Positions 1,426-31,150 of a stretch of 48,580 nt of DNA are shown here, piece by piece. Within the stretch, counting starts at the first letter, position 1. Each line of letters begins with the position of its first letter. Source of the stretch: Planctomycetales bacterium (lineage in GTDB: Bacteria > Planctomycetota > Planctomycetia > Pirellulales > Thermoguttaceae); NCBI GenBank assembly GCA_007126245.1, contig SLBP01000069.1, positions 1 through 48,580 of the forward strand. Reading direction: 5' to 3'. The notes beneath the pieces are model-generated. The model saw only the letters and a program-made list of their open reading frames with translations, did not search any database and was not told the DNA's origin. The translations under genes and the position numbers were made by a program.

Positions 1426-2375
1426 AACGTGTCATCCTCCGACGCATATCATGCTGTTACTTACCTTCCGACTCGGGTATTCCCGAGTCCCGCCGCCTCG
1501 AGCGACGATGCATGCCCTATGCCTCCTCACTCTCGATGCGGGACCGGACGTGCCCCCCCCAAATGGCCAGCGCAATGGACCGCGACCCTAGGCTGGGCTC
1601 GCCTGACTGCAGCCCAAGAATACCGGAATAATGGCCGCCCGCGGCTCTCGCTTGAGTCGCTCGTTGCCCTTTATCACTTCCTTGACCGGCCGTCTTGCGC
1701 GCCTGGTAGGGTGGCCACTATGTGCCAACTAGGCCCGGTCTCGTTGAGAATGGTAATCTCCGGCGATGCCACCCAGGCAGCGCCAGAATTGAGCCCGCGT
1801 GTAAACGTCTTCGACTTGGCGGCCCAACGCCTCCTTGTGCTCGATCAGCTCGCCGGAGTGAACACTGGGCATCCAAACCATTGATGTTCGCCAGAACAGC
1901 AAGACTCCCGGTGACGCCTCGGTCGCGTCACACCTCGTAGCGACCGCACACGCACGGGTCTGGGTCGCCCACTTAATTCCGCGAGTGGGTTTCTGGCGTG
2001 TCTTGCATAAGCGGCTCCCCTTGCATCGAGTTGGACCGCGCGGCGTGACGAATTGCACGCGATAGCGCGTCAGACTGCATTTCGCCTCTCCTCCCCAGCG
2101 GCCACTGATCATTCGAGTACACTCAATATAGCTTTTTGCCACCATTGGGCAATCCCACTTTGGGGCTAACATTAGGCAGCCCTTAGTGCGGGCAAAATTG
2201 GTCGATCGTAACCATTGGCAGACAATCGGACACGATGTTACACCCGACATCAGCCAACGTATGGCACAGATATGCTAGCTCCTTGGGCGGGAAACCTTGC
2301 CTTAATGGATTGTTACGTTATGATGAGTCGTCGATACTCGAGGACAGTCGACAACTCATGCAAGGAGGTGATCTC

Positions 2376-2621
2376 ATGGCGAGTTTACATCAAGCGGTAC
2401 GTTGCAAGCCCGCTCGCTCCCTCGTGGTAGAGTCAGCCCGTCGGCGTCTCAGTCGTAGCTGCTACCGGCAAATCCGGCAAGTTATCTGCCGTTACCATGA
2501 AGGTGTGCTTTTTCTTCATGGTCACCTCTCTTCCTACTATCTAAAGCAGCTCGCCCAGGAAGCTGTACAGGGTTTGGAGGGAGTGGAAGAGATCGTCAAT
2601 TGTATTGAGGTGGAGCGCTGA
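2376..2621 (+). CDS. small BON-domain (OsmY-like) protein, 81 aa
   Basis: Track ORF 2235..2621. A strong SD (AAGGAGGTGA) lies 5 nt before the in-frame ATG at 2376. The C-terminal ...GVLFLHGHLSSYYLKQLAQEAVQGLEGVEEIVNCIEV matches the BON-domain pattern. The gene sits in a local low-GC stretch. Confidence 0.45.
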   Translation: MASLHQAVRCKPARSLVVESARRRLSRSCYRQIRQVICRYHEGVLFLHGHLSSYYLKQLAQEAVQGLEGVEEIVNCIEVER

Positions 2622-2728
2622 TGGGACGGAAGGAGTCAGTTCCGTCGAATCACCGTGCGATATTGCTGTCGTAGGATTCAGGAGTTCTTGAAAGAGTGCC
2701 GTATGAAGGCAGCAGGAGGTGGCCGTAA

Positions 2729-3304
2729 GTGGAAGTACTGCTGACCTGTTTTGCGATCTTTACTGCCAAGGTTGCCCATGTCAGCCTCGCGACAATACGC
2801 ATCATCTATTTGACCAAGGCCAATGGCACGACGGCGGCGGTCATCGGTTTTGTTGAAACTATCGTGTACGTCATTGCCTTGAGCATGGTTTTGAGCAACC
2901 TCGACCGATGGGAAAACATCGTGTGCTACGGGTGCGGCTTTGCATCGGGAATTGTCGTGGGCAGCATGATTGAGGAGAAGATTGCTATTGGCACCGTTCA
3001 TGTTCAAATCGTAGCGCCGCAAAACGGCGGGCATGTTCAAGAAATGTTGCGTGAACATGGATTCGGTGTGACTTCGATTCCCTGCCAGGGGAAGACAGGA
3101 AAGCATCTGATCAACCATGTCATTATGAAACGAAAGAGGCTGGGGGAGCTATTCAAGCTAATACAAGATCATCACCCAGAAGCCTTTGTGTCGGTTCTTG
3201 ATGCCCGCCAGACCATGGGTGGCTACGAAGAAGGGGCGACTACGAGGCGGGGAACAGCGCTTGAGAGGGATGCTGTTGTCGAGGCCAGGGGGGACGCGAA
3301 ATAG
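2729..3304 (+). CDS. UPF0316/DUF2179-family membrane protein (YebE-like)
   Basis: Track ORF 2729..3304 with a GTG start and AGGAGG 9 nt upstream. It has N-terminal hydrophobic helices and the family-like motif ...VSLATIRIIYLTKANGTTAAVIGFVETIVYVIALSMVL...GFASGIVVGSMIEEKIAIG, followed by a soluble C-terminal domain. GC is about 50%, far below the surrounding DNA. Confidence 0.55.
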   Translation: MEVLLTCFAIFTAKVAHVSLATIRIIYLTKANGTTAAVIGFVETIVYVIALSMVLSNLDRWENIVCYGCGFASGIVVGSMIEEKIAIGTVHVQIVAPQNGGHVQEMLREHGFGVTSIPCQGKTGKHLINHVIMKRKRLGELFKLIQDHHPEAFVSVLDARQTMGGYEEGATTRRGTALERDAVVEARGDAK

Positions 3305-3322
3305 CAGAGCGCAGAGCTGCCC

Positions 3323-3364
3323 GGGAGGCACCTCCCGAGTTCGGCCCGGCAAAAATACCGGGCC
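3323..3364. terminator. two adjacent short GC hairpins (GGGAGG-CA-CCTCCC; GGCCCGG-caaaaata-CCGGGCC) between convergent genes
   Basis: Inverted repeats read directly at 3323-3336 and 3343-3364. They lie just downstream of the UPF0316 stop (3304) and downstream of the decayed 3' end of the giant minus-strand gene. There is no clear U-tract, so intrinsic-terminator function is tentative. Confidence 0.25.
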
Positions 3365-3486
3365 GCCGGTGGAGGTGCAGCAGGAGTCTCCCGGTGTTGC
3401 GGTTGAACTCGCGAGCTCTGGTCGGCTGCCGTCGTAGTGTCCTGCCTCCGCTTGAACTGCGAGAGCACGTAGCCGTTTTAACGCCC

Positions 3487-3751
3487 GCTGGATCGCTTCC
3501 TGGTCGGAGACCAATTGGAACACCGTCGTCCCATCCACGGCCTCCCGCCTCGCCGCCTGGCCCGAGGCTCGCTGGACGAGTGCGCAGAGGGCAGGGCCCT
3601 CAGTTTGCTCGGAGATGAAGTCGACGCTGCCATCTGCGAAGGCGGCGTGAAATCCGTTGCTGCAGAGGTCGCCCAGGTGGGCAAACGGGTCCTCCGGATC
3701 GAAGGAAAAATCACGCCTGGTCCACGGAACCTCCCGCTTGGCTTCGCCCAA
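3487..3751 (-). pseudogene. decayed C-terminal fragment of a sixth DUF1559 module (out of frame with the giant upstream ORF)
   Basis: The first 88 codons of track ORF 3158..3751 (AKREVPWTRRDFSFDPEDPFAHLGDLCSNGFHAAFADGSVDFISEQTEGPALCALVQRASGQAARREAVDGTTVFQLVSDQEAIQ) are nearly identical to the end of DUF1559 module 3 in the giant protein. The DNA at 3487-3760 is about 95% identical to 5575-5840. About 360 bp relative to 5850-6190 is missing near 3760, which breaks the frame. Confidence 0.6.
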
Positions 3752-4320
3752 AAGGATTGTGCTCCTCGCCGGGCCCCTGGAGAACGGCGGGTGGATAGCC
3801 GCGGCGGCTGTCGTGATACGAAGTCAGGCCAAATACGAGCTTGCGAAGGCGACTTGCCGTCTCCGAATCGGGCAGAGATGGGCGTTCGGCAGTCCAGCTC
3901 GTGATGTCGTCCGCGGTGCCGTCCTCCCCGTCGGGACCCAGCGACCAGATGAGCGGCTTCTCGCTGTCGGTGCCGCGGGTGGGCGGGTGTTCGTACCGGT
4001 ACTCGTTTCCCCAGGGGTCGCGGGGGACGACGTCGGACCGCACGTAGGGACCGTTCCAGGCCGCGTCTTCCGGCAGGCCGGCGGGCCGTTCGATCAGCGC
4101 ATGCAGGCCTTCCTCCGTGGTGGGATAACGGCCGCAGTCGAGCCGGAATAGCTCCAGGGCCTGCTGGAGATTCTGGATTTGCTTCTGGGTCGATATGTGC
4201 TCCTTGTCGGGCCGAACTGTCTGTTTGATGATTACCTCCACGCCCGCCTTGCTGAGTACATCGAGGAGCTCTCGAACTGACGTATAAGGGGTATCAGCTG
4301 AGGCCTCGACGATCGTTCGG
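3487..4320. repeat. intragenic segmental duplication, copy B (GspG-like domain 2 + truncated DUF1559 module 5 and remnant)
   Basis: See copy A. Matching runs include 3761-4180 vs 6161-6580 and 3487-3750 vs 5581-5840. Confidence 0.7.
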
Positions 4321-7300
4321 GCGGGCTGCCGGTCTTCGAGCAGTTGGCGTAACGCTACCAGGTCGTACCGCCGACCGTCGACGCGGATCGCCCCGCTGGC
4401 GTCGATCTCGATTACCGGCCAGTCTATCTCATCCACCGAAGAGCGCGGCGGCGCGGGAGGGGGAGCGGCCAATTCGAATTTCGTGGCGCCGTCGACGGTC
4501 TCCCGCTTCACCGGCTGGCCCGAGGCCCGCCGGAAGAGCACCGAGAGAGCGTCTCCTTCGGTCTTCTCGGAAACGAAGGAGACGCTGCCGTCGGCGAAGA
4601 GGGCATGGAAGCCACCGGGGAAGTAGCTGCCCAGCTCGGGCAACGGCTCGTCCGGATGGAAGGGGAGATCCCCCGGTTTCGTCCAGGGGACCTCCCGCTC
4701 TGCCTCGACCAGGAGGATAGTATTCGACGTGCCGTCAAAGAACGTGGTAATCGGTACTCCCTCGTTCTCCCGCTGAGCGGCATCCGCCGGAGGTGCAATA
4801 GACGCAGATCCGCTCATTCCCCCCATTTCCATAGGCCTCTGTTGGGGCGGCGACGGGTCCCAGGCGGTGCCCGGGCCAACAAGGGCGAACACCGAGGTAT
4901 TCGTCGACTCGTCCGTGTCCTGCGGGGAACGGTAGACTTCGGGCATCTGGTCAAGCAGCGCGAGATTGTGCGGGCTGTCCCAGGGCTCGTCGCGGCGGTA
5001 CTGCTCGTACAGGTCCGCGGCATCGAGGAACGGCAGGAGCGCTATCCGCCAACTGTAAGAGGTGTCGTTCGGCCCACGGAGGGTCGCAGGTGGGAACCTC
5101 CCGTGCATGTCGTGGTATTCGTGCAGCGCAATGCCGAGCTTCGCGAGACGCCCGGCTGCCTCCTGCCGGAGACTCGTCTCGGGAGAAAGGTCGGGCTGGC
5201 CGGCGGGAAACGACGGCGGCTTCGTTGCCGGTCCGACTCCGACGCGGCGCAAGTCCCAGACCTCATGGCGTCCGTCCCCCGCGGAGTCCATGGCGGCGGG
5301 CCGCTCCCTCCCCTCCGGGTCGATAGCAATCCGCAGGCGATGGAGGTCCAGTTCATAGATCGCCGCAAAACTGTGCTCCCGGCCACGAGACGTTGAGATC
5401 AGGTCGATCGCCTGCCGCTGGGGATCGAGCTCGAAGCGGCCGACGCGAATGGTATCTTGGCCGCGATCCCATTCCACCAACTCGTACCGGTCCTCTCGAA
5501 ACGTGACCGTTCGCGGTCCGGAACGGAGCTGGACCCGCTCCTGGCCACCGCGCATCACGGAAAGGAATTCCCAGGTCCCCTGGATCGCTTCCTGGTCGGA
5601 GACCAATTGGAACACCGTCGTCCCATCCACGGCCTCCCCCCTCGCCGCCTGGCCCGAGGCTCGCTGGACGAGTGCGCAGAGGGCAGGGCCTTCAGTTTGC
5701 TCGGAGATGAAGTCGACGCTGCCGTCCGCGAAGGCGGCGTGAAATCCGTTGCTGTAGAGACCGCCCAGGTGGGCAAACGGGTCCTCCGGATCGAAGGAAA
5801 TGTCGTCAGGTCGGGTCCACGGAACCTCCCGCTTCGCTTCGACCAGAAGGATCGTGTTCATCGCGCTGTCATGCATCAAGGGGAGGGGCACCCCCTGCGC
5901 AGGGGCTTCGTCCGCTGGGGGCACATTCAATCCGGCGTCCACGAGTTCTTCAGTGCACGGCGGGTCCCAGGCCGTGCCGGGACCCACGAGCGCAAAGACC
6001 GAAGTGTTTGTCGAGTCTTCCGCGTCTCGTGGGGAACGGTAGACCTCGGGCATCCTGTCCAGGAGGGCGAGGTTGTGGGGGCTGTCCCAGGGCTCGTCGC
6101 GGCGGTATTGGCTGTAGAGATCGCTCTCGCCGACCATGGGGAGCAGTGCCACCCGCCAACTGTAGGGTTCCTCGCCGGGCCCCTGGAGAACGGCGGGTGG
6201 AAAGCCGCGGCGGCTGTCGTGATACGAAGTCAGGCCAAATACGAGCTTGCGAAGGCGCCTTGCCGTCTCCGAATCGGGCAGAGACGGGCGTTCGGCAGTC
6301 GAGCTTGTGATGTCGTCCGCCGTGCCGTCTTCTCCATCCGGACCTGAGGACCAGAGAAGCGGCTTCTCGCTATCGGTGCCGCGGGTGTGCGGGTATTTGT
6401 ACCGATACTCGTTGCCCCAGGGATCGCGGGGGACGGCGTCGGACCGCACGTAGGGACCGTTCCAAGCGGCATTCTCCGGCAGGCTACTGGGCCGTTCGAT
6501 CAGCGCGTGCAGGCCTTCCTCCGTGGTGGGATAACGGCCGCAGTCGAGCCGGAAGAGCTCCAGTGCCTGCCGCAGGTTCTGGATTTGCGTCTGGGCCGAA
6601 ATGTGATCGATCTGATCCTTGTCAGGCTGAAGTGCCCGTCGTAAGAGAGTGACTTCCACGCGCATGCGGGTGAGTAGCTCGAGGATCTCCCTAATCGGCG
6701 CGTAAGGGGTATCGGGCGAGGCTCGGATGAGTGCTCGGCGAGGCCTCTGATCTTCAAGCAGTTGGCGAAACGCTACCAGGTCGTACTGTTCGCCGTCGAC
6801 GCGGATCGCCCCGCTGGCGTCGATCTCGATGACGGGCGGCGCACGCGGCCGCGCGGGAGGGGGAGCGAGCAGCTCGAATACAGTCGCGCCGTCGACGGTC
6901 TCCCGCTTCACCGGCAGGCCCGAGGCCCGCCGGAAGAGCGCCGAGAGAGCGTCTCCTTCGGTCCTCTCGGAAACAAAGGAGACGCTGCCGTCGGCGAAGA
7001 GGGCATGGAAGCCACCGGGGAAGTAGCCGCCCAGCTCGGGCAACGGCTCGTCCGGATGGAAGGGGTAATCCTCCGGTTTCGTCCAGGGGATCTCCCGCTC
7101 CGCCTCGACCAAGAGAATGGTATTCGATGTGCCGTCACGGATCTCTTGAATTGGCACTCCTTTGGCATCGGCCGGAAGCCCTCCCCCCATCGCCATTGTC
7201 ATCATTGCCCTTGTTGTAGCCGGGTCCCAGACAGTGCCGGGGCCGACGAGGGCGAAGACCGAGGTGTTGGTCGAGTCGTCGACGTCCTTTGGGGAACGGT

Positions 7301-10190
7301 AGACCTCGGGCATGCGATCGAGGAGCGCCAAGTTGTGGGGACTGTCCCAGGGCTGGTCGCGGCGGTATTGCTCGTAGAGGTCGGCTGCTTCCAGGAACGG
7401 CAGCAGCGCCACGCGCCAACTGTAGGGCGTCTCGCCGGGGCCGGTAAGGACTGGGGGCGGAAAGCTGTGATGGGCATCGTGATAGTTGTGCAGGGCGATG
7501 CCGATTCGCGCCAATCGCCTGCCCGCCTCCTGTCGGAGTTCAGCTTCCGGATCGAGCGGTTCCTCGCTACGCGGCACCGGATCGGGACCGGCGGCGCCGT
7601 AATCGAAACCCGCCGGCGGGCGTCGCGGCGCGCGAGGGGGACCGGCCAATTCGAATTTTGTCGCGCCGTCGACGGTCTCCCGCTTCACCGGCTGGCCCGA
7701 GGCCCGCTGGACGAGCGCCGAGAGGGCGGCTGCGTCGCTCCTCTCGGAAACAAAGGAGACGCTGCCGTCGGCGAAGAGGGCATGGAAGCCTCCGGGGAAG
7801 TAGCCGCCCAACTCGGGCAGCGGCTCCTCCGGATGGAAGGGGAGATCCTCCGGTTTCGTCCAGGGAACCTCCCGCTCCGCCTCGACCAGGAGGATGGTGT
7901 TCATCGTGCCGTCAGGGATCGCGGAAAATGGCACTCCGTCGAGTCCGTGCGGAGTGGTATAGGCCGAGTGTGCGGATCCCATCATCCCCGCGCCTCCCAT
8001 CATCCCCGCCCCCGACATCCCCATAGGCATCTGCCTGGGCGGGGACGGGTCCCAGGCGGTACCGGGGCCGACGAGGGCAAAGACCGAGGTGTTGGTCGAG
8101 TCGTCGGCGTCCTTGGGGGAACGGTAGACCTCGGGCATGCGATCGAGGAGCGCCAAGTTGTGGGGACTGTCCCAGGGCTGGTCACGGCGGTATTGCTCGT
8201 AGAGGTCGGCTGCTTCCAGGAACGGCAGCAGCGCCACGCGCCAACTGTAGGGCGTCCCGCCGGAGCCGGTAAGGACCGGGGGCGGAAAACTGCGATGGGC
8301 ATCGTGATAGTTATGCAGGGCGATGCCGATCTGCTGCAACCGCCTGGCCGCCTCCTGCCGGAGTTCGGCCTCCGGATCGAGCGGTTCCTCGCTGGGGGGC
8401 ACGACTTGGGGTGGCGTCTCCGGGGCAACGCGACGCAGTTGCAGGAAAAGTACCGCAGGCGCATCGGCGCGGGGCTCGACCGATGTAGGTCGCTCGCCAT
8501 CCTCCTGCTGTTGCAGCGCGAGACGGAGGTGGTCGTTCTCCAGCGCGTAGATCCCGCGTTTGATCATCTCTCGGCCATCGGACTCTACCTCGTGCATGTC
8601 GATCGCCTTGCGTTCGGGATCGAGCGTGAACACACCGACAATGACAATCGTCTCGGACCGGCCCTCCATCTCCTCGATCAACTCGAACCGGTCATCCCGA
8701 AAGACTAGCCTGGGCGAGGTGAAGATGATCGAGCCAAGCAGTTCCCGCTTGCCCTGGATCACCGACGTGGCCTCCCAGGTACCCTGGATCGCCTCCCGGT
8801 CGGGCATGGTGGTCGGAAGCGTTACCGTGACGTTCCCCTCCTCGTCCACCTGGGCGTGTGCCCCGGCGGGGACCTCGACGCGCGTGGCCTTGCCGTCACG
8901 CACGATGGTAATCACGATCCCCAAGGCAACGGCCGCAGCCACGCCGGCCAGCGCCAGGCCCACTGCCGTGAGCAGGCGCGAGGGGCGCCAGCGGACCGGC
9001 TGGGTCGCTCTTGGCGGCGCGGCCGAGGGCTCCTCCGCCTTCGCCCCTGCCGCAACGACTCCCGCCAGGTCGGCATCTACGGTGAAGGGCGCCAACGCCG
9101 CGGCCAGCTCGGCGGGCGTGGCGAAGCGGTCGGCGGGGTCTTTGGCCAGGAGCCGCTCGACGATGGCCGCTACGCCGGCGGGCACGTGCGGGGCCAGCCG
9201 GCGGAGCGGCGGGGCCGTGGCGTGGACGTGGGCGTGGAGCTTCTCCAGCGTCCCCGAGTGCTCGGGGGCCATGAAAGGGGCCCGCCCGGTGAGGAGCTTG
9301 TAGAGCGTGCAGCCGAGGCTGTAGAGGTCGGCGCGGATGTCGACGGTGTGGCTGTCGCGGACCTGCTCGGGGGCCATGTAGTCGGCGGTCCCCATGGCCT
9401 GGCCGGTGGAGGTCATCTCCTCACCGGCGGCCGCCTCGGCGTTGAGCAGCGCGAGGCCGAGATCGAGGAGCTTCACCTCGCCCGCCGTGCTGAGCATGAC
9501 GTTCGAGGGCTTCACGTCGCGGTGGACGAATCCATGTTCGTGGACGTAGTCGAGGGCCAGGGCCGCCCGCCGCACGATCTCGCAGGCATCGGCGAGGGCC
9601 AGCGGTCCTCGCCGCCGAAGCAACTCGGCCAGGTCGCAGCCCTCGACGAACTCCATCACCAGCAGCATCTCGCCGTCGATCTCGCGGGCGTCGTAGGCGT
9701 GGACGATGTTGGGGTGGTTCAGCCGGCCGACGGCCTTCATCTCGCGGGCGAAACGGGCCAGGGCCTGGGGGTCGTCGAGCCGGTGCTTGGGGAGGACCTT
9801 CAGGGCCACGACACGGTCCAGCCGCGTGTGGAGGGCCAGGTACACGCGGCCCATCCCCCCGCGGCCCAGTTCCTCGATGACCTCGTACTCTCCCAGCATG
9901 CGGCCGCCTGCCATGCCCGCTTCGGCCGTTTCCCCTTCCCTGCCACCCATTGCCCGCACCCGCGCCAGCGCCAACCGGCACTGCGACTCCCCCTCGAACG
10001 GGTCGGTTGCCCCCGGCTGCCGGAGCTGCTCGACGAAGGTATCGGCGGCATCGTCGATGGTGGCGATTTCGGCCTGGCAGTCGGGGCAGGTTTCGAGGTG
10101 CTCCGCCACGGCCTCGGCCGCCCGTTCGTCGATCTTCCCCACCGCGTAGGCATGGAGCGCTTCGCGCCGCGGGCAGGTGATGCTGTTCAT
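3711..10190 (-). CDS. giant multidomain protein: N-terminal anti-sigma-like zinc finger + Ser/Thr protein kinase + TM helix + beta-rich domain + tandem pseudopilin-like modules (5x DUF1559 core, 2x T2SS GspG-like, 2x ExbD/TolR-like)
   Basis: Single 2159-aa ORF. N-terminus: C-x13-H-x3-C-x2-C (CPRREALHAYAVGKIDERAAEAVAEHLETCPDCQ). Kinase motifs: LGRGGMGRVYLA, VALKVL, HRDVKPSNVML, DLGLA, GTADYMAPEQ. TM helix: LLTAVGLALAGVAAAVALGIVITIV. DUF1559 motifs occur five times: IGIALHNYHD..FPP, WRVALLPFLE, DSTNTSVFALVGPGTAWD, DGTSNTILLVEAEREVPWTKP, GGFHALFADGSVSFVSE. GspG C-terminal-like segments occur twice (QIQNL.QALELFRLDCGRYPTTEEGLHALIERP...PRDPWGNEYRY). ExbD-like segments occur twice (VIEIDASGAIRVDG..YDLVA.RQLLED). 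Confidence 0.85.
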   Translation of the reverse strand: MNSITCPRREALHAYAVGKIDERAAEAVAEHLETCPDCQAEIATIDDAADTFVEQLRQPGATDPFEGESQCRLALARVRAMGGREGETAEAGMAGGRMLGEYEVIEELGRGGMGRVYLALHTRLDRVVALKVLPKHRLDDPQALARFAREMKAVGRLNHPNIVHAYDAREIDGEMLLVMEFVEGCDLAELLRRRGPLALADACEIVRRAALALDYVHEHGFVHRDVKPSNVMLSTAGEVKLLDLGLALLNAEAAAGEEMTSTGQAMGTADYMAPEQVRDSHTVDIRADLYSLGCTLYKLLTGRAPFMAPEHSGTLEKLHAHVHATAPPLRRLAPHVPAGVAAIVERLLAKDPADRFATPAELAAALAPFTVDADLAGVVAAGAKAEEPSAAPPRATQPVRWRPSRLLTAVGLALAGVAAAVALGIVITIVRDGKATRVEVPAGAHAQVDEEGNVTVTLPTTMPDREAIQGTWEATSVIQGKRELLGSIIFTSPRLVFRDDRFELIEEMEGRSETIVIVGVFTLDPERKAIDMHEVESDGREMIKRGIYALENDHLRLALQQQEDGERPTSVEPRADAPAVLFLQLRRVAPETPPQVVPPSEEPLDPEAELRQEAARRLQQIGIALHNYHDAHRSFPPPVLTGSGGTPYSWRVALLPFLEAADLYEQYRRDQPWDSPHNLALLDRMPEVYRSPKDADDSTNTSVFALVGPGTAWDPSPPRQMPMGMSGAGMMGGAGMMGSAHSAYTTPHGLDGVPFSAIPDGTMNTILLVEAEREVPWTKPEDLPFHPEEPLPELGGYFPGGFHALFADGSVSFVSERSDAAALSALVQRASGQPVKRETVDGATKFELAGPPRAPRRPPAGFDYGAAGPDPVPRSEEPLDPEAELRQEAGRRLARIGIALHNYHDAHHSFPPPVLTGPGETPYSWRVALLPFLEAADLYEQYRRDQPWDSPHNLALLDRMPEVYRSPKDVDDSTNTSVFALVGPGTVWDPATTRAMMTMAMGGGLPADAKGVPIQEIRDGTSNTILLVEAEREIPWTKPEDYPFHPDEPLPELGGYFPGGFHALFADGSVSFVSERTEGDALSALFRRASGLPVKRETVDGATVFELLAPPPARPRAPPVIEIDASGAIRVDGEQYDLVAFRQLLEDQRPRRALIRASPDTPYAPIREILELLTRMRVEVTLLRRALQPDKDQIDHISAQTQIQNLRQALELFRLDCGRYPTTEEGLHALIERPSSLPENAAWNGPYVRSDAVPRDPWGNEYRYKYPHTRGTDSEKPLLWSSGPDGEDGTADDITSSTAERPSLPDSETARRLRKLVFGLTSYHDSRRGFPPAVLQGPGEEPYSWRVALLPMVGESDLYSQYRRDEPWDSPHNLALLDRMPEVYRSPRDAEDSTNTSVFALVGPGTAWDPPCTEELVDAGLNVPPADEAPAQGVPLPLMHDSAMNTILLVEAKREVPWTRPDDISFDPEDPFAHLGGLYSNGFHAAFADGSVDFISEQTEGPALCALVQRASGQAARGEAVDGTTVFQLVSDQEAIQGTWEFLSVMRGGQERVQLRSGPRTVTFREDRYELVEWDRGQDTIRVGRFELDPQRQAIDLISTSRGREHSFAAIYELDLHRLRIAIDPEGRERPAAMDSAGDGRHEVWDLRRVGVGPATKPPSFPAGQPDLSPETSLRQEAAGRLAKLGIALHEYHDMHGRFPPATLRGPNDTSYSWRIALLPFLDAADLYEQYRRDEPWDSPHNLALLDQMPEVYRSPQDTDESTNTSVFALVGPGTAWDPSPPQQRPMEMGGMSGSASIAPPADAAQRENEGVPITTFFDGTSNTILLVEAEREVPWTKPGDLPFHPDEPLPELGSYFPGGFHALFADGSVSFVSEKTEGDALSVLFRRASGQPVKRETVDGATKFELAAPPPAPPRSSVDEIDWPVIEIDASGAIRVDGRRYDLVALRQLLEDRQPARTIVEASADTPYTSVRELLDVLSKAGVEVIIKQTVRPDKEHISTQKQIQNLQQALELFRLDCGRYPTTEEGLHALIERPAGLPEDAAWNGPYVRSDVVPRDPWGNEYRYEHPPTRGTDSEKPLIWSLGPDGEDGTADDITSWTAERPSLPDSETASRLRKLVFGLTSYHDSRRGYPPAVLQGPGEEHNPFGRSQAGGSVDQA
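5575..6660. repeat. intragenic segmental duplication, copy A (GspG-like domain 1 + DUF1559 module 3)
   Basis: Aligned by eye to 3487-4320 at roughly 92-95% identity, apart from one ~360-bp gap in the other copy. Both copies encode the same GspG-like and DUF1559 segments. Confidence 0.7.
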
Positions 10191-18440: not shown

Positions 18441-18717
18441 CGACGTGCGGGCGGGTCGTAGCGGCTAGGAAAGGTAAAGCCTTCCTGCGGATTCTACCGA
18501 AGAGCCTTCTAGGGCGGAACGTGCGCCGTGCCCGAAGGGGAACCCGGCTCTTCCCTGGCAACTCGTTTTATCGGAAGGAGGAAGAAGAGGAAAGTCAGGC
18601 CCGAGCACAGGGGCTTCATCCCTCCCTGTGTTATCCACTTTCTCTGCTTTCTGCGGCCCTTTCCCGAGACCCCGGGTGCGCGAGGGCTCGACAATATCGA
18701 CCGCTGGGGGGCGAGTC

Positions 18718-19521
18718 ATGTATCCCAATCCGTGGGGGCTCTGCGAAAGCCCTTTCCGTGTTTCGCTCGATGCTCGTTTCTTTTTCCAGAGTCCCATCCA
18801 CGAGGAGGCGCTGGCCCGGCTCCATTTTCTTGTCGAGCAGCGGCGGCGGTTGGGGGTCCTGCTCGGACCGGCGGGCAGCGGCAAGTCGCTCGTGCTGGAG
18901 TGTTTCGCGGCGCAGCTCCGCCGCCAGGGGGCAGCGGTCGCCCGGACGGACCTCGACGGGGTCGATCTGGAGGATATGCTGGCCGCTGTAGGCGTCGGAT
19001 GGGAGCTCAACCCCGATGGCGGTGCGCGGTCGCACGTGCTCTGGCGTCTCGTCGAGGACCGCATCAAGCAGTTTCGCTACGAGCAACGGGCGACCGTTCT
19101 CTTGGTCGACGACGCCCATTGTGGCGAGAAGGCCACGACCGCGGCCCTGATGCGTCTGGCCGAGTCGGATCTCTCCCCCGATTCGCGGCTGACCATCGTC
19201 CTGGCCGCCCGCTCGGAGTCGATCGCCCTGCTCGACCCGCGGTTTCTGGAGCTGGCCGAGCTGCGGATCGACCTGGAACCGTGGGATCAGAGCGACACTG
19301 CGGCCTACCTGGCCGCCTCCCTGGCGGCGGTGGGGCGGGGGGAGCCGCTCTTCGACGGGGCGGCGGCCACTCGCCTGCACGAGTTGGCAGGGGGCGTCCC
19401 GCGGCGGGTCAGCCTGTTGGCCGACTTGGCGCTGTTGGCGGCGGCGGGCGAGAACCGGGAGACCATCGATGCCCACATCGTCGAGTCGGCCTACCGGGGA
19501 CTGGGACTGGTGGAGGTGTGA
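18718..19521 (+). CDS. ExeA/GspA-like AAA+ ATPase (AAA domain only)
   Basis: Track ORF 18628..19521, with the start taken at the internal ATG 18718 (MYPNPWGLCESPF...). N-terminal PF/FF motif and Walker A GPAGSGKS. ExeA-like layout: HEEALARL.FLVEQRRRLGVLLGPAGSGKSLVL ... LLVDDAH. Confidence 0.65.
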   Translation: MYPNPWGLCESPFRVSLDARFFFQSPIHEEALARLHFLVEQRRRLGVLLGPAGSGKSLVLECFAAQLRRQGAAVARTDLDGVDLEDMLAAVGVGWELNPDGGARSHVLWRLVEDRIKQFRYEQRATVLLVDDAHCGEKATTAALMRLAESDLSPDSRLTIVLAARSESIALLDPRFLELAELRIDLEPWDQSDTAAYLAASLAAVGRGEPLFDGAAATRLHELAGGVPRRVSLLADLALLAAAGENRETIDAHIVESAYRGLGLVEV

Positions 19522-19655
19522 CGACTGTCCCCTTCGCCAGGCACGCCGCGGCAGGGTAAGGGGACAGGTCCATTTTTCGGGTATCGGCGGTCGCTAAAGA
19601 CAGGGGCTATTGGCCGAAAAATGGACCAGTTCCCGCCCGGCCGTGAACGGTTACC
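19522..19655. repeat. truncated copy of a palindromic MITE-like intergenic element (right hairpin + right terminal inverted repeat GTGAACGGTTAC)
   Basis: The stretch 19529-19655 aligns at roughly 85% to 30143-30274. Hairpin arms: GGGGACAGGTCCATTTTTCGG (19560-19580) and CCGAAAAATGGACCAGTTCCC (19613-19633). The right-end motif GTGAACGGTTAC lies at 19643-19654. The left half is absent. The element abuts the stop of the upstream + gene and sits 40 bp before the sulfatase ATG. Confidence 0.5.
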
Positions 19656-19694
19656 TCCCGTCGTGTCCCAGAGGACCCTACACGGAGAAGACCC

Positions 19695-28974: not shown

Positions 28975-29820
28975 TCAGGCGATCAGTTCGCGGAGAAAGC
29001 GGACGCTCTGGCGGATGTTCTCGTCGGCGCCGTAGCACTCGATGGATAGAACGCCGTCCCAGTCGGTAACCTTGAGATACTCGATGCACTGGCGGATGTT
29101 CTCGGCGTTTACGCCCCCACCGATGGGCACCTCGCTGGTGGCGATACCCGTCTCCTCGCCGCGGACGGCGGCGGCGAGCTGGGGGCTGACGTCCTTGATA
29201 TGGGCATGGGAGAGGTACTTGCGGAAGCGCTTGAGATACTCGAGCGGGTCGTTGCCCGAGATGAACGTGTTGCCGGTGTCGAAGTTGAATCGCAGGTGGG
29301 GAGATTCGAAGTGGGCAAAGAGGCGTTCGAGGAAATCGCCGTTGGTGGTGTAGGGGCCGTGGGTCTCGACGTTGACAATCACATCGTAGTCTTCGGCCCA
29401 GGCGAGGCACTGGCGGTAGTTGTCCACAGTGATCCGAAAGACCTCCTCGTCGGAGTAGCCTTCGGTCTTCATGGCTCCGTCGGTGGTGTCCACGATGGGG
29501 CAACCGATTTCGGCGGCGAAGCGGATGGCCTGCTGCACGTAGGGGACCGCCCAGCTCGACCCTTCCGGCCCCATCATCGGGAAGGCGGCGTCGATCTGCG
29601 AGACGTTCAGGCCTTTTTCGTCGAGAAGGCGGCGGAGCCGGCGGGGGTTGGAGAAGAGAGAGACGGACGGGTCGTAGCCCAGTCCGTGGACGAAGTACTG
29701 GCCGTAGATGACGCCGAATTCGATGTGTTTCAGGGCGTTCTGGAGTGCGGAATCGACGGCCGCCTGGAAATTCCCGCTGAGCGTCCGCCAATTGTCGGTA
29801 TGCATGCCCAGTTCGATCAT
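28975..29820 (-). CDS. sugar phosphate isomerase/epimerase (xylose-isomerase-like TIM barrel)
   Basis: Track ORF. GGGAGA SD upstream. TIM-barrel metal-site pattern: VETHGPYTTNG, FNFDTGN, HIKD. Confidence 0.75.
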   Translation of the reverse strand: MIELGMHTDNWRTLSGNFQAAVDSALQNALKHIEFGVIYGQYFVHGLGYDPSVSLFSNPRRLRRLLDEKGLNVSQIDAAFPMMGPEGSSWAVPYVQQAIRFAAEIGCPIVDTTDGAMKTEGYSDEEVFRITVDNYRQCLAWAEDYDVIVNVETHGPYTTNGDFLERLFAHFESPHLRFNFDTGNTFISGNDPLEYLKRFRKYLSHAHIKDVSPQLAAAVRGEETGIATSEVPIGGGVNAENIRQCIEYLKVTDWDGVLSIECYGADENIRQSVRFLRELIA

Positions 29821-30058
29821 CGTCGCTTCTCCCTGCGTTGAGTTTCGCCCCGAATCGGGAAACCGCCACCTGCCGCCCCGACCGCCTCTTAAGATAACAA
29901 TCCCCCCCTCCCGCGCCCACGGGAGCCCGGTGAGGCGGGCATCGGAGGCCGACTTCTCCGGTTCGCCGCCGTTTCCGCGCCGTGGCCCAGCCGCTGGTCG
30001 ACCGCCCTGAGAGACGATTGGCGGTCCAGCGATGCGCGGATACGCAGCGAGCCGCCCG

Positions 30059-30274
30059 GTAACCGTTCACGGGGGACCGTCCCGGTTTTCGCGGCCTAGA
30101 GAGTATTCCTCGTGGACAACGCGATTCGGCCGCGAAAATGGGACTGTCCCCTTCGCCCGGTCGCCGCGGCACGGTAGGGGGACGGGTCCATTTTTCGGGC
30201 GTCGGCGGTCGCTAAAGGCAGGGTCTATTGGCCGAAAAATGGACCCGTCCCCGGCCGGCGCGTGAACGGTTACG
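30059..30274. mobile_element. 216-bp MITE-like element: 12-13 bp terminal inverted repeats (GGTAACCGTTCAC / GTGAACGGTTAC) enclosing two long hairpins; flanked by GCCGCCC direct repeat
   Basis: Read directly. Left inverted repeat 30059-30071, right inverted repeat 30263-30274. Hairpin A: 30073-30096 pairs with 30128-30150, imperfectly. Hairpin B: 30177-30199 (GGGGACGGGTCCATTTTTCGG) pairs with 30231-30251 (CCGAAAAATGGACCCGTCCCC), around a ~31-nt loop. GCCGCCC occurs at 30052-30058 and again at 30275-30281. A related partial copy lies at 19522-19655. Confidence 0.5.
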
Positions 30275-30311
30275 CCGCCCGGTCGATTTGACATATTGGT
30301 GGAGACTTCCC

Positions 30312-30542
30312 ATGATAGATGGTTGTCGCTCCGTTGGGGGGCGGGATTCGGCAGCGTTGATCCTTAGCCGGCGGGCTGTTGAAGTTGCGGCGGCGTTGGA
30401 GCGCAAGATTGATCGCGGTGTGTCGAATCCTCCCTTGGACGAGCATATGGGGCCCGAGACCGCAATCCCCGTTGGCAGTGGGGGCTTCGCCCGGTTCGGC
30501 GCGTGCCGAGCCGGCGGGGTTTCGTGGAAGGTGAAGCGATGA
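30312..30542 (+). CDS. possible small ORF (76 aa) translationally coupled to the NfeD gene
   Basis: In-frame ATG inside track ORF 30228..30542. Its stop overlaps the NfeD start in an ATGA arrangement. It has no recognisable domain, and its third-position GC is lower than in neighbouring genes. This is a speculative call. Confidence 0.2.
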   Translation: MIDGCRSVGGRDSAALILSRRAVEVAAALERKIDRGVSNPPLDEHMGPETAIPVGSGGFARFGACRAGGVSWKVKR

Positions 30543-31150
30543 CGACCATATTCCTGATTTGCGCGGTTGTGGGGGGCACCGTTCTGGTCGCCCAGTTCGT
30601 GATGACGCTCATCGGACTCGGCGGCGACGCCCTGGGGGTCGACTTGCCGGGCGATCTGGACGGCGAGCCCGACTCGGTCTTTTCGGGAGACGGCTTGGCG
30701 GGAGCCCAGGGGGATCCAGGGGCGATCTTCCGGATCCTCTCGTTTCGAACCGTGGTAGCCGCCCTGGCCTTCTTCGGCATCGGCGGGCTGGCCGCGGATT
30801 CGATCGGCGCCTCACCGGCGGCGACTCTCCTCGTGGCCACCGGCAGCGGGGCGCTGGCCCTTGTGGCAGTCTACTGGCTCATGCGAGGGGTATGCTCGTT
30901 GAAATCCGACGGCACGGCGCGGATCGAGCGGACCGTCGGGCGGCACGGTACGGTCTACGTGAGCATCCCCGCCAGACGGGACGGCTCCGGGAAGATCCAG
31001 ATGAACCTGCAGAACCGGACCATGGAGTTCGATGCGGTGACGGACGGCGCCCGGCTTGTTCCGGGAGCTAAAGTTATGGTGGTCGACGTGGTCACCCCCT
31101 CCACCGTCGCCGTGGAACCGATCGAAGCGCGCGAAAGGAACGAGGTATGA
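30539..31150 (+). CDS. NfeD-family membrane protein (flotillin partner; TM helices + C-terminal OB-fold)
   Basis: Track ORF 30503..31150, with the start at ATG 30539 (MTTIFLICAVVGGTVLVAQFVMTLIGLGG). Hydrophobic helices, then a beta-rich C-terminus (GTVYVSIPARRDGSGKIQMNLQNRTMEFDAVTDG..KVMVVDV). Its stop overlaps the flotillin start (ATGA). Confidence 0.7.
   Translation: MTTIFLICAVVGGTVLVAQFVMTLIGLGGDALGVDLPGDLDGEPDSVFSGDGLAGAQGDPGAIFRILSFRTVVAALAFFGIGGLAADSIGASPAATLLVATGSGALALVAVYWLMRGVCSLKSDGTARIERTVGRHGTVYVSIPARRDGSGKIQMNLQNRTMEFDAVTDGARLVPGAKVMVVDVVTPSTVAVEPIEARERNEV

What the first reader, a model, noticed from the sequence alone, without database searches (positions are those of the whole stretch)
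30059..30274. 216-bp double-hairpin element with terminal inverted repeats and a flanking 7-bp direct repeat (MITE-like)
GGTAACCGTTCAC at 30059-30071 and GTGAACGGTTAC at 30263-30274 bracket two long imperfect hairpins with ~20-bp stems. GCCGCCC lies immediately outside both ends, which would fit a target-site duplication. No transposase gene is present, so this is a non-autonomous element or a structured RNA module. Protein-like conservation between the two copies in the track ORFs (GSIFRPIDPAFSDRR.PKNGPVPLPCRG) is just the translated nucleotide repeat.
Basis: seen in the sequence. Interest (0 to 1): 0.6.

Follow-up and report, generated by a model that had tools for sequence, protein, structure and literature searches.

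The report
IS66-type MITE carrying two hairpins
This is a 215-bp non-coding hitch-hiker transposon (a MITE) of a planctomycete, moved by IS66-family transposases; it is an ordinary kind of element, except that its two internal hairpins survive intact long after the transposon ends have decayed.

Summary
Window 30059-30273 is bounded by a perfect 13-bp terminal inverted repeat (GTAACCGTTCACG). It is flanked by an 8-bp, not 7-bp, direct repeat (GCCGCCCG) and contains two related hairpins.

The MITE reading is supported. I found 93 related copies in the window and in about 20 Planctomycetota MAGs. Of 26 TIR pairs, 7 have identical 8-bp flanking duplications of differing sequence and 5 more match 7/8; none of 208 shifted controls reached 8/8. 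One copy is nested inside another MITE.

GTAA-starting ends with an 8-bp duplication mark the IS66 family. A metagenome scan with the 15-mer end found 14 complete 1.5-2.8 kb elements bounded by that end and encoding DDE_Tnp_IS66 transposases. One has a perfect 8-bp duplication. A partner in the same genome was not shown.

One feature goes beyond a routine MITE. The hairpin stems are nearly invariant, while the loops vary and the ends erode. Erosion never enters the stems. End-less copies cluster just downstream of stop codons (Fisher p=0.0016). This suggests, but does not prove, REP-like retention of the hairpins. I file it as a new member of a known kind, of moderate interest.

The parts
30051..30058 (.). 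Left copy of the 8-bp target-site duplication, GCCGCCCG
   Evidence: Sequence and direct repeat D12. The same 8-bp pattern recurs at other insertions with other sequences.
30059..30071 (+). Left terminal inverted repeat, GTAACCGTTCACG (an IS66-family type end)
   Evidence: Inverted repeat I8, 13 nt, 100% complementary. The same 12-15 nt bound 14 IS66-family elements.
30071..30151 (+). Hairpin H1. The 5' arm is GGGGGACCGTCCCGGTTTTCGCGGCC, the loop is about 31 nt, and the 3' arm is GGCCGCGAAAATGGGACTGTCCCC. Each arm carries the near-palindrome GGGACNGTCCC.
   Evidence: Repeats I13, D1 and D4 and folds. Across 23 H1 copies the arms are almost invariant and the loops vary.
30152..30177 (+). Linker between the two hairpins (TTCGCCCGGTCGCCGCGGCACGGTAG). 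It is longer here than in most family members (TTCGGCCGGTAA).
   Evidence: Sequence and comparison with other dimer copies.
30178..30252 (+). Hairpin H2, with 21-bp perfect arms GGGGACGGGTCCATTTTTCGG and CCGAAAAATGGACCCGTCCCC and a 33-nt loop
   Evidence: Inverted repeat I2. In alignment A1 of 82 copies the stems are invariant and the loops vary.
30253..30260 (+). Right linker, GGCCGGCG
   Evidence: Sequence. The family consensus is GGCCGGCC(C), 50-80% conserved.
30261..30273 (-). Right terminal inverted repeat, CGTGAACGGTTAC
   Evidence: Inverted repeat I8.
30274..30281 (.). Right copy of the 8-bp target-site duplication, GCCGCCCG
   Evidence: Sequence and direct repeat D12.
19523..19656 (+). 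Second family copy, single-hairpin form. It has the G-box GACTGTCCCC, a linker, H2 (arms 19560-19580 and 19614-19634) and the right TIR (GTGAACGGTTACC, 19643-19655). There is no left TIR. It starts 1 nt after the TGA of the AAA-ATPase ORF 18628-19521.
   Evidence: nhmmer E = 2.3e-25 against the 30051-30281 element. Context.

Best explanation
The element is a non-autonomous DNA transposon, a MITE of the IS66 family. I place it closest to the single-ORF, ISBst12-like branch.

A DDE transposase encoded elsewhere recognises the two GTAACCGTTCACG ends. It moves the 215-bp segment and inserts it with an 8-bp staggered cut, which repair turns into the GCCGCCCG duplication. This insertion landed in the 720-bp divergent intergenic region between a xylose-isomerase-like gene and an unknown ORF followed by an SPFH gene.

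The cargo is two diverged copies of an ~80-nt hairpin module. Single-hairpin forms of the family look like deletions between the GGGACTGTCCC copies that sit in both arms of H1.

What is shown:
- The anatomy of the element.
- That it is multi-copy with unrelated flanks.
- The 8-bp duplications and one nested insertion.
- That the same ends bound IS66-family transposase genes.

What is inferred:
- That such a transposase acts in trans on this copy.
- The chemistry of the move.
- Any role of the hairpins. They are conserved in sequence like the ends. They are probably either needed by the element or kept by the host as REP-like hairpins at the 3' ends of genes.
For: 1. Anatomy: a perfect 13-bp TIR and an abutting 8-bp direct repeat.

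2. Copy number. A genome-collection scan with the inner H2 palindrome returned 82 loci. Nearly all are Planctomycetota MAGs, with about 24 loci in SKJM01 and about 23 in JAPLNP01. nhmmer with the window element found 93 non-overlapping copies with unrelated flanks.

3. Target-site duplications. Of 26 TIR pairs, the 8-bp flanks are identical in 7 and match 7/8 in 5. In shifted controls, 0 of 208 reached 8/8 and 2 of 208 reached 7/8. The duplicated sequences all differ: GCCGCCCG, GGTTCATT, GGGCCATG, CGAACTTG, CCGATAGG, GGACGGGA, CCTGGGGC.

4. Nested insertion. In L015, a MITE at 2222-2422 with duplication GGGCCATG sits inside another TIR-bounded element at 2113-2460.

5. Family assignment from the literature:
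- IS66 makes 8-bp duplications (PMC6778807).
- Published IS66-family ends are GTAAGCGTCCGG... and GTAACCGTCCGGGCA (PMC12888890).
- ISDge4 of the ISBst12 group has the end GTAACTGCTCAGCA, an 8-bp repeat and a single 449-aa transposase (PMC12898284).

6. Autonomous partners. A metagenome scan with GTAACCGTTCACGGG returned 120 loci.
- 16-18 of these carry an IS66-family transposase homologue next to the match.
- 14 are complete 1.46-2.84 kb elements bounded by the same end on both sides.
- Pfam gives PF03050 DDE_Tnp_IS66 at E = 1e-46 for L140 and 2e-39 for L151.
- L109 has a perfect 8-bp duplication, CTTGACCC.

7. Rfam has no match.
Against: No autonomous element with these ends was found in the window or in any MITE-bearing MAG locus. 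The only IS66-family ORF in such a MAG (L009 216-1886, PF03050) lacks the GTAACCGTTCAC end.

The named relatives of the transposases are from Myxococcota, Chloroflexota and other phyla, none from Planctomycetota. Only 1 of the 14 complete elements shows a duplication. These are metagenome assemblies, where flanks of repeats are often chimeric.

No empty site was found for the window insertion. The same locus is 99.98-100% identical in two other assemblies. The next relatives of the flanking gene are 80-82% identical and not syntenic.

The hairpins were not found inside the sampled IS66 elements, so their origin is unexplained.

About half of the hairpin copies have no recognisable TIR (36 of 81 keep the right one). 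TIR-based transposition alone does not explain why those persist.
Confidence: 0.87

Rival explanations
1. The hairpins, not the TIR-bounded unit, are the real entity. On this view they are REP/REPIN-like palindromes, either spread by an unidentified structure-specific enzyme such as a RAYT-type tyrosine transposase, or kept by the host as hairpins at the 3' ends of genes (transcript stabiliser or terminator). The IS66-type ends are only one vehicle that picked them up.
For: - Stems are nearly invariant in sequence across roughly 20 MAGs, while loops vary.
- In TIR-bearing copies, mean pairwise identity is 0.95-0.96 for the stem arms that were not part of the search pattern, against 0.58 for the loops.
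- Of 47 copies truncated on the right, none ends inside the outer arm. Five end exactly at the hairpin base and the rest end at scattered points in the linker or TIR.
- 25 of 37 TIR-less copies lie within 30 nt of a stop codon and only 3 of 37 lie in divergent regions. For TIR-bearing copies the figures are 9 of 32 and 11 of 32 (Fisher p = 0.0016).
- Orientation downstream of stop codons is 27 opposite to 13 same (p = 0.04).
- Each arm holds its own short near-palindrome, as REPs do.
Against: - No RAYT or other recombinase lies between or beside paired copies; the nine ORFs tested there are ordinary genes.
- The hairpins have no GTAG or CGTC head, and at ~80 nt they are longer than classic REPs.
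- There is no U-tract after the stem, and the terminator scan finds nothing at the main copy.
- The boundaries of TIR-less copies are ragged and keep pieces of the MITE linker and TIR. This fits erosion of MITEs better than a unit with fixed ends.
- Gene calls were made with a crude composition-based caller. TIR status is confounded with genome of origin. The p-values are uncorrected.
Confidence: 0.35
2. It is a structured non-coding RNA gene or cis-regulatory RNA that happens to be repeated.
For: Both strands fold far better than shuffles (z = -6.1 and -5.2). One compensatory pair change is seen in H1 of L059 (GCAGC...GCTGC). The mismatched position in H2 is filled by A-T or G-C pairs in a few copies.
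Against: No Rfam family matches at the gathering threshold, and only noise appears at E up to 10. None of the 19 predicted H2 pairs shows a both-sides change in 82 copies, and the covariation term is -0.01. Copies occur in both orientations and in every intergenic context. Terminal inverted repeats with 8-bp duplications are properties of DNA transposition, not of RNA genes.
Confidence: 0.07
3. It is a chance palindrome-rich intergenic sequence or an assembly artefact.
For: None beyond the generally high G+C content, which raises background pairing.
Against: The same locus is present at 99.98-100% identity in two independent assemblies. There are 93 family copies in the sequence held here, in about 20 MAGs. 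None of 200 shuffles folds as well.
Confidence: 0.01

Closest known systems
IS66 family insertion sequences, single-ORF ISBst12-like members (for example ISDge4)
   Same: The ends start with GTAA. GTAACCGT is shared with the published ISPa75/ISPsy43 end GTAACCGTCCGGGCA (PMC12888890). The target duplication is 8 bp (PMC6778807, PMC12898284). Elements bounded by exactly this end encode DDE_Tnp_IS66 transposases of 440-560 aa in 1.5-2.8 kb.
   Different: The window element is 215 bp, encodes nothing and has unrelated internal sequence. It is a passenger of that family rather than a member with a transposase.
Bacterial MITEs with long internal hairpins that affect transcripts (Correia/NEMIS of Neisseria, ERIC, RUP; listed as MITEs in PMC3733652)
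   Same: It is small (70-300 bp) and non-coding, with TIRs, a target duplication, many intergenic copies and strong stem-loop potential. Like them, it may matter at the RNA level after insertion.
   Different: The sequence, host phylum and parent IS family are different. Here the conserved part is two internal hairpins distinct from the TIRs, and no effect on transcripts has been measured.
REP / REPIN elements mobilised by RAYTs
   Same: Two conserved inverted arms of about 21-25 nt surround a less conserved spacer. The elements are extragenic, often just after genes. They occur as singlets and doublets, and each arm is itself a short near-palindrome.
   Different: No RAYT was found near copies. 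There is no GTAG or CGTC head. Many copies have DDE-type TIRs and 8-bp duplications, which REPINs do not make.
Integron attC sites
   Same: They are imperfect hairpins of similar length, with conserved arms, a variable centre and conserved unpaired bases.
   Different: The R''/R' core (RYYYAAC...GTTRRRY) is absent. There is no cassette array and no integrase context. Copies are scattered singly in intergenic DNA.

Membership tests
[quoted passage not shown] | Terminal inverted repeats at both ends | tested here: met
   13-nt perfect TIR at 30059-30071 and 30261-30273. The same TIR is found at both ends of 26 pairs in other loci.
[quoted passage not shown] | Target-site duplication of fixed length and variable sequence | tested here: met
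   The 8-bp flanks are identical in 7 of 26 pairs and match 7/8 in 5 more. In shifted controls, 0 of 208 reached 8/8. All duplicated sequences differ.
[quoted passage not shown] | Small size and no coding capacity | tested here: inconclusive
   The size criterion is met at 215 bp. The only ORFs are 75-77 aa frames that run through the hairpins on both strands, and they were not scanned against protein families. A transposase cannot fit in 215 bp.
[quoted passage not shown] | Multiple copies at unrelated sites | tested here: met
   93 copies in the window plus 82 genome loci. Two copies are in this window.
[quoted passage not shown] | Polymorphic presence or absence (an empty site) | tested here: inconclusive
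   Two other assemblies of the same species carry the insertion. More distant relatives are not syntenic. A nested insertion in L015 is indirect evidence of mobility.
IS66 family (as the source of the ends) | Ends beginning GTAA, similar to known IS66-family inverted repeats | tested here: met
   GTAACCGTTCACG compared with published GTAACCGTCCGGGCA and GTAAGCGTCCGG... (PMC12888890) and GTAACTGCTCAGCA (PMC12898284). A GTAAGCGTTCACGG variant occurs in L083.
IS66 family (as the source of the ends) | 8-bp target duplication | tested here: met
   for the MITEs and for the autonomous element in L109. Literature value from PMC6778807.
IS66 family (as the source of the ends) | Autonomous elements with the same ends encode a DDE_Tnp_IS66 transposase | tested here: met
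   14 complete elements. PF03050 at E = 1e-46 and 2e-39. 16-18 of 120 loci chosen only by the 15-mer carry a homologue.
IS66 family (as the source of the ends) | Cognate transposase present in the same genome as the MITE | tested here: inconclusive
   Only 8-kb loci of the MAGs could be read. L009 has a PF03050 ORF but no matching end. Whole genomes could not be scanned.
REP / REPIN-RAYT system | Associated RAYT (Y1 HUH transposase) gene flanked by the repeats | tested here: not met
   Nine ORFs lying between paired copies are ordinary genes: ferredoxin, glycosyltransferase, Tad, BNR, CAP. Whole genomes were not scanned.
REP / REPIN-RAYT system | Conserved GTAG or CGTC head on a 20-40 nt palindrome | tested here: not met
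   The bases before the arms vary (TAA, GAA, CAG, ACG...) and the hairpins are about 75-81 nt. The criterion is from PMC3733652.
Known RNA families (Rfam 15) | A match at the family's gathering score | tested here: not met
   0 matches in the whole window. Only microRNA or snoRNA noise at E of 0.58 or higher in 29800-30560.
Integron attC | R''/R' core sites and a cassette or integrase context | tested here: not met
   The hairpin base is GGGGAC...GTCCCC, not RYYYAAC...GTTRRRY. Copies are single and intergenic. The core-site consensus is from my own knowledge.

The most novel reading that the evidence does not exclude
The ~80-nt hairpin module is a functional unit in its own right: a REP-like element of Planctomycetota that IS66-type MITEs distribute. 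Once it lands downstream of a gene, it is kept by selection while the transposon ends rot away. A weaker variant is that a still unknown structure-specific enzyme copies it. On this reading the MITE is a delivery vehicle for a host-useful hairpin at the 3' ends of genes, acting as a terminator, RNA stabiliser or protein-binding palindrome GGGGACNGTCCCC. The evidence does not exclude this: the stems are invariant with variable loops, erosion stops at the hairpin base, and TIR-less copies are enriched after stop codons with a weak orientation bias.
Probability: 0.3. Interest if true: 0.6.

Novelty: new member of a known kind. Interest (0 to 1): 0.38.

Why it matters
For annotation, the element explains two intergenic hairpin regions in this window and dozens in related MAGs. 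These would otherwise invite spurious ORF or RNA calls, and they probably fragment the assemblies of these MAGs.

It links a planctomycete MITE family to IS66-type (ISBst12-like) transposases through shared ends. I found no description of this sequence in the searchable literature.

The more interesting point is evolutionary. Within one family one can see young copies with intact ends in all intergenic contexts, and old copies in which only the hairpin survives, mostly right after stop codons. If that pattern reflects selection, it is a clean natural example of a mobile element seeding REP-like hairpins at the 3' ends of genes, in a phylum where transcription termination and RNA stability signals are poorly known.

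Tried and rejected
1. Rfam gave nothing, both for the whole window at gathering thresholds and for the region at E up to 10.

2. Empty-site search failed. The flanking gene's exact protein gave only near-identical assemblies that carry the insertion. Homologues at 80-82% identity sit in different gene neighbourhoods.

3. An all-against-all BLAST of the loci for long repeats found no IS-sized repeat among the genome loci. It found only a few orthologous stretches. The L018/L059 and L055/L084 pairs gave no usable empty site because the intergenic DNA is not alignable.

4. I tried to fetch a reference IS66 transposase from E. coli pO157. That record has no IS66-family gene, and accession NC_002142 is not held. 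The route was abandoned.

5. I tried to place the transposases in Planctomycetota through protein names and cluster members. No planctomycete label appeared, and the two NCBI contigs I looked up belong to other assemblies.

6. A covariation test of the H2 stem found no compensatory changes, so it gives no RNA-structure support.

7. GGGACNGTCCC is not enriched elsewhere in the window (7 found, 5.5 expected). I therefore dropped the idea that it is a general operator motif.

8. A literature search for the exact sequences returned only unrelated primer matches.

9. attC and CRISPR-like readings were rejected on anatomy and context.

Full report
**What is in the window**

- The terminal inverted repeat is GTAACCGTTCACG at 30059-30071 and CGTGAACGGTTAC at 30261-30273. 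It is 13 nt and perfectly complementary.
- The 8 bp immediately outside both ends are GCCGCCCG (30051-30058 and 30274-30281). The element is therefore 215 bp with an 8-bp direct repeat, not 7 bp.
- Hairpin H2 has 21-bp perfect arms (30178-30198 and 30232-30252) and a 33-nt loop.
- Hairpin H1 (about 30071-30151) is an imperfect relative of H2, offset by 101-106 nt.
- Both strands fold far better than dinucleotide shuffles, with z = -6.06 and -5.18 and 0 of 200 shuffles as good.
- Rfam has no match.

The element lies in a 720-bp divergent intergenic region. On one side is a xylose-isomerase-like TIM-barrel gene (28975-29820, minus strand). On the other is an unannotated ORF (30503-31150) followed by an SPFH/Band-7 gene. 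A sigma-70-like TTGACA-17-CATGAT sits at 30288-30316, 7 nt beyond the right duplication.

It has only H2 and the right end, and it begins one base after the stop codon of an AAA-ATPase ORF.

**It is a repeat family of Planctomycetota**

The identical locus occurs in GCA_007135285.1 and in an ENA assembly at 99.98-100% identity, so it is not an assembly artefact.

One scan of the species-representative genome collection with the inner H2 palindrome (CCATTTTTCGG, 25-45 nt, CCGAAAAATGG) returned 82 loci. Nearly all are from Planctomycetota MAGs. About 24 are in SKJM01, about 23 in JAPLNP01, and others are in PWXP01, SKZG01 and MAGs labelled Pirellulales and Thermoguttaceae.

Four Myxococcota loci matched only the inner palindrome and have different outer stems. 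One Verrucomicrobiota locus also matched the pattern; it gave no nhmmer hit to the window element.

nhmmer with the window element found 93 non-overlapping copies with unrelated flanks. They fall into four forms:
- Two-hairpin copies like the one in the window.
- H2-only copies of about 135 nt. In these the left end is followed by a single GGGGACTGTCCCC, as expected from a deletion between the two GGGACTGTCCC copies in the arms of H1.
- H1-only copies.
- Copies with no recognisable ends.

**It transposes**

I took every pair of GTAACCGTTCAC-like ends (up to 2 mismatches) lying 60-400 bp apart and compared the 8 bp outside them.

| 8-bp flank match | TIR pairs (n = 26) | Shifted controls (n = 208) |
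|---|---|---|
| 8/8 | 7 | 0 |
| 7/8 | 5 | 2 |
| 6/8 | 2 | 2 |

The duplicated sequences all differ, so they are target-site duplications and not part of the element. In L015 one copy with its own duplication (GGGCCATG) sits inside another element bounded by the same ends. Other short elements with the same ends but different interiors exist (L055 1291-1414 and L083 3052-3192), as expected if a transposase recognises only the ends.

No empty site could be found for the window insertion.

**Which transposase**

Ends starting GTAA together with an 8-bp duplication point to the IS66 family. That lead came from memory, and I then checked it.
- PMC6778807 reports 8-bp duplications for IS66.
- PMC12888890 gives IS66-family ends GTAAGCGTCCGGCGAACTCACCTT and GTAACCGTCCGGGCA. 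The latter shares its first 8 nt with the end here.
- PMC12898284 describes ISDge4 of the single-ORF ISBst12 group, with GTAACTGCTCAGCA ends and an 8-bp repeat.

- 16-18 of these loci, chosen only by the 15-mer, carry an IS66-family transposase homologue beside the match.
- 14 are complete elements bounded by the same sequence on both sides.
- Those of 1.46-1.62 kb have one ORF of about 440-490 aa. Those of 2.46-2.84 kb have an additional ORF.
- Pfam gives DDE_Tnp_IS66 at E = 1e-46 (L140) and 2e-39 (L151), plus DUF6444 and a weak zf-IS66 match.
- L109 (1573 bp, in a contig of 69% G+C) has a perfect 8-bp duplication, CTTGACCC.

The ends of the window element are therefore those of a widespread IS66-family lineage.

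A partner in the same genome is not shown. The transposase relatives that carry names are from other phyla. The one IS66-family ORF in a MITE-bearing MAG locus (L009) has no matching end. Only 8-kb pieces of the MAGs could be read.

**The hairpins behave differently from ordinary cargo**

- In 82 H2 copies the stem is almost invariant and shows no compensatory changes, while the loop varies.
- The same holds for 23 H1 copies, which were not part of the collection pattern. One compensatory pair change appears in L059.
- An A-A mismatch (GACAGG opposite CCAGTC) is retained in most copies. It arises because each arm carries the near-palindrome GGGGACNGTCCCC.
- Among 38 copies that keep the right end, mean pairwise identity is 0.95-0.96 for the outer stem arms (not used for ascertainment), 0.92 for the end itself, 0.67 for the linker and 0.58 for the loop.
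- Only 36 of 81 H2 copies keep a recognisable right end.
- In the 47 that do not, similarity to the consensus stops at scattered points in the linker or end, and five times exactly at the hairpin base. It never stops inside the outer arm. If the endpoints were spread evenly, my estimate is that about 14 would fall inside the arm.

Using a simple composition-based gene caller, almost all copies are intergenic: 42 tandem, 14 divergent, 13 convergent and 6 possibly in ORFs.

| Copy type | Within 30 nt of a stop codon | In divergent regions |
|---|---|---|
| TIR-less (n = 37) | 25 | 3 |
| TIR-bearing (n = 32) | 9 | 11 |

The stop-codon difference gives Fisher p = 0.0016. Downstream of stop codons, the orientation is 27 opposite to 13 same (p = 0.04).

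These numbers are suggestive only. The gene calls are crude, end status is confounded with genome of origin, and the tests are uncorrected.

Two readings fit. In the first, the stems are needed for transposition and are kept at the level of the element. In the second, the hairpin is retained in place as a REP-like structure at the 3' ends of genes. The second reading better explains end-less old copies with diverged loops and perfect stems. It currently lacks any expression evidence, any U-tract and any associated RAYT.

**Unexplained**

About 10 of 87 copies, mostly lacking one or both ends, are flanked by direct repeats scoring 14-29, which are 14-33 bp long. The maximum control score was 12 in 520 comparisons.
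- Some include a gene's stop codon (L018, L046).
- Some repeat the duplication plus the first bases of an end (L063, L071).
- L042 is a tandem array of elements sharing the spacer AACGATT.

Unequal recombination, tandem element dimers, or replication slippage at the hairpin could produce these. I could not decide between them.

**Verdict**

This is an IS66-family (ISBst12-like) MITE of a planctomycete, with 13-bp ends and an 8-bp duplication, carrying two copies of a conserved hairpin module. I found no description of it in Rfam or in the searchable literature. It is a new member of a known kind.

The aspect worth following up is the apparent long-term retention of the hairpins after the transposon ends decay.

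Noticed in passing
window 19523-19656: A second, single-hairpin copy of the same family. It has no left TIR and starts 1 nt after the TGA of the AAA-ATPase ORF 18628-19521, 38 nt upstream of a sulfatase gene. The leftover GACTGTCCCC can pair with the 5' arm of H2 (inverted repeat 19525-19545 / 19547-19567), giving an alternative hairpin.
   Followed up: partly
window 30288-30316: A sigma-70-like TTGACA-17-CATGAT (10 of 12 matches) lies 7 nt beyond the right target duplication and points at the ORF starting 30503/30541. The MITE therefore landed just upstream of a putative promoter. This is a consensus match only.
   Followed up: no
L016 1124-1231, L059 3743-3951, L020 2699-2804, L046 3649-3739, L018 889-992, L082, L025, L071, L063: About 10 of 87 copies are flanked by direct repeats of 14-33 bp, far beyond the 8-bp duplication (scores 14-29, against a control maximum of 12). 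These copies often lack one TIR, and the repeats sometimes contain a gene's stop codon. The mechanism is unknown.
   Followed up: partly
L151 118-999, with homologous 2.5-2.8 kb elements in L161, L135, L152 and L130: The longer IS66-family elements with the same ends carry an extra upstream ORF. In L151 it matches the Druantia DruA domain (PF14236, E = 9e-35), an odd companion for a transposase.
   Followed up: no
L160 635-3288 and L172 298-1920: In low-GC metagenome contigs the same 15-mer end is part of inverted repeats of 60 nt or more (GTAACCGTTCACGGGGGGGTACATCATGCGCATAAACG...). These bracket ordinary genes (hydantoinase B; MCP-like sensor plus AAA_35). They look like pairs of another MITE type, or a composite transposon.
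   Followed up: partly
L005, L007, L013, L044 (Myxococcota MAG CBDCGT01), e.g. L007 107-191: A different multi-copy ~85-nt palindrome (GGTGTCAGGAGACCATTTTTCGG ... CCGAAAAATGGTCTCCTGACACC) shares only the inner CCATTTTTCGG / CCGAAAAATGG core with the planctomycete hairpin. Whether this is convergence or a distant relationship is unknown.
   Followed up: no
window 1900-3700: A low-G+C stretch (0.53 against 0.65-0.72 elsewhere) without long ORFs. The longest plausible ORF is 2729-3304 (191 aa, membrane-like). It is possibly foreign DNA.
   Followed up: no
window 3711-10190 (minus strand): A 2159-aa ORF with an N-terminal kinase-like region and several internal repeats of about 1 kb at 82-94% DNA identity. 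The repeats carry planctomycete-typical '...SFPPPVL...FADGSV' modules. GGGACTGTCCC occurs twice inside these coding repeats.
   Followed up: no
L009 216-1886: An IS66-family transposase ORF (PF03050, E = 6e-33) lies 1.1 kb from a hairpin copy in the JAPLNP01 Planctomycetia MAG. It has no GTAACCGTTCAC ends and shows only about 25% identity to the L140 transposase.
   Followed up: partly
L045 455-582 and L050 1531-1665: This is the only orthologous pair of insertions found (SKJM01 versus PWXP01, flanks 89.5% identical over 2.4 kb). By my reading of the sequences, the stems differ at 1 of 42 positions, the loop at about 6 of 33 and the right linker plus TIR at about 5 of 21.
   Followed up: partly
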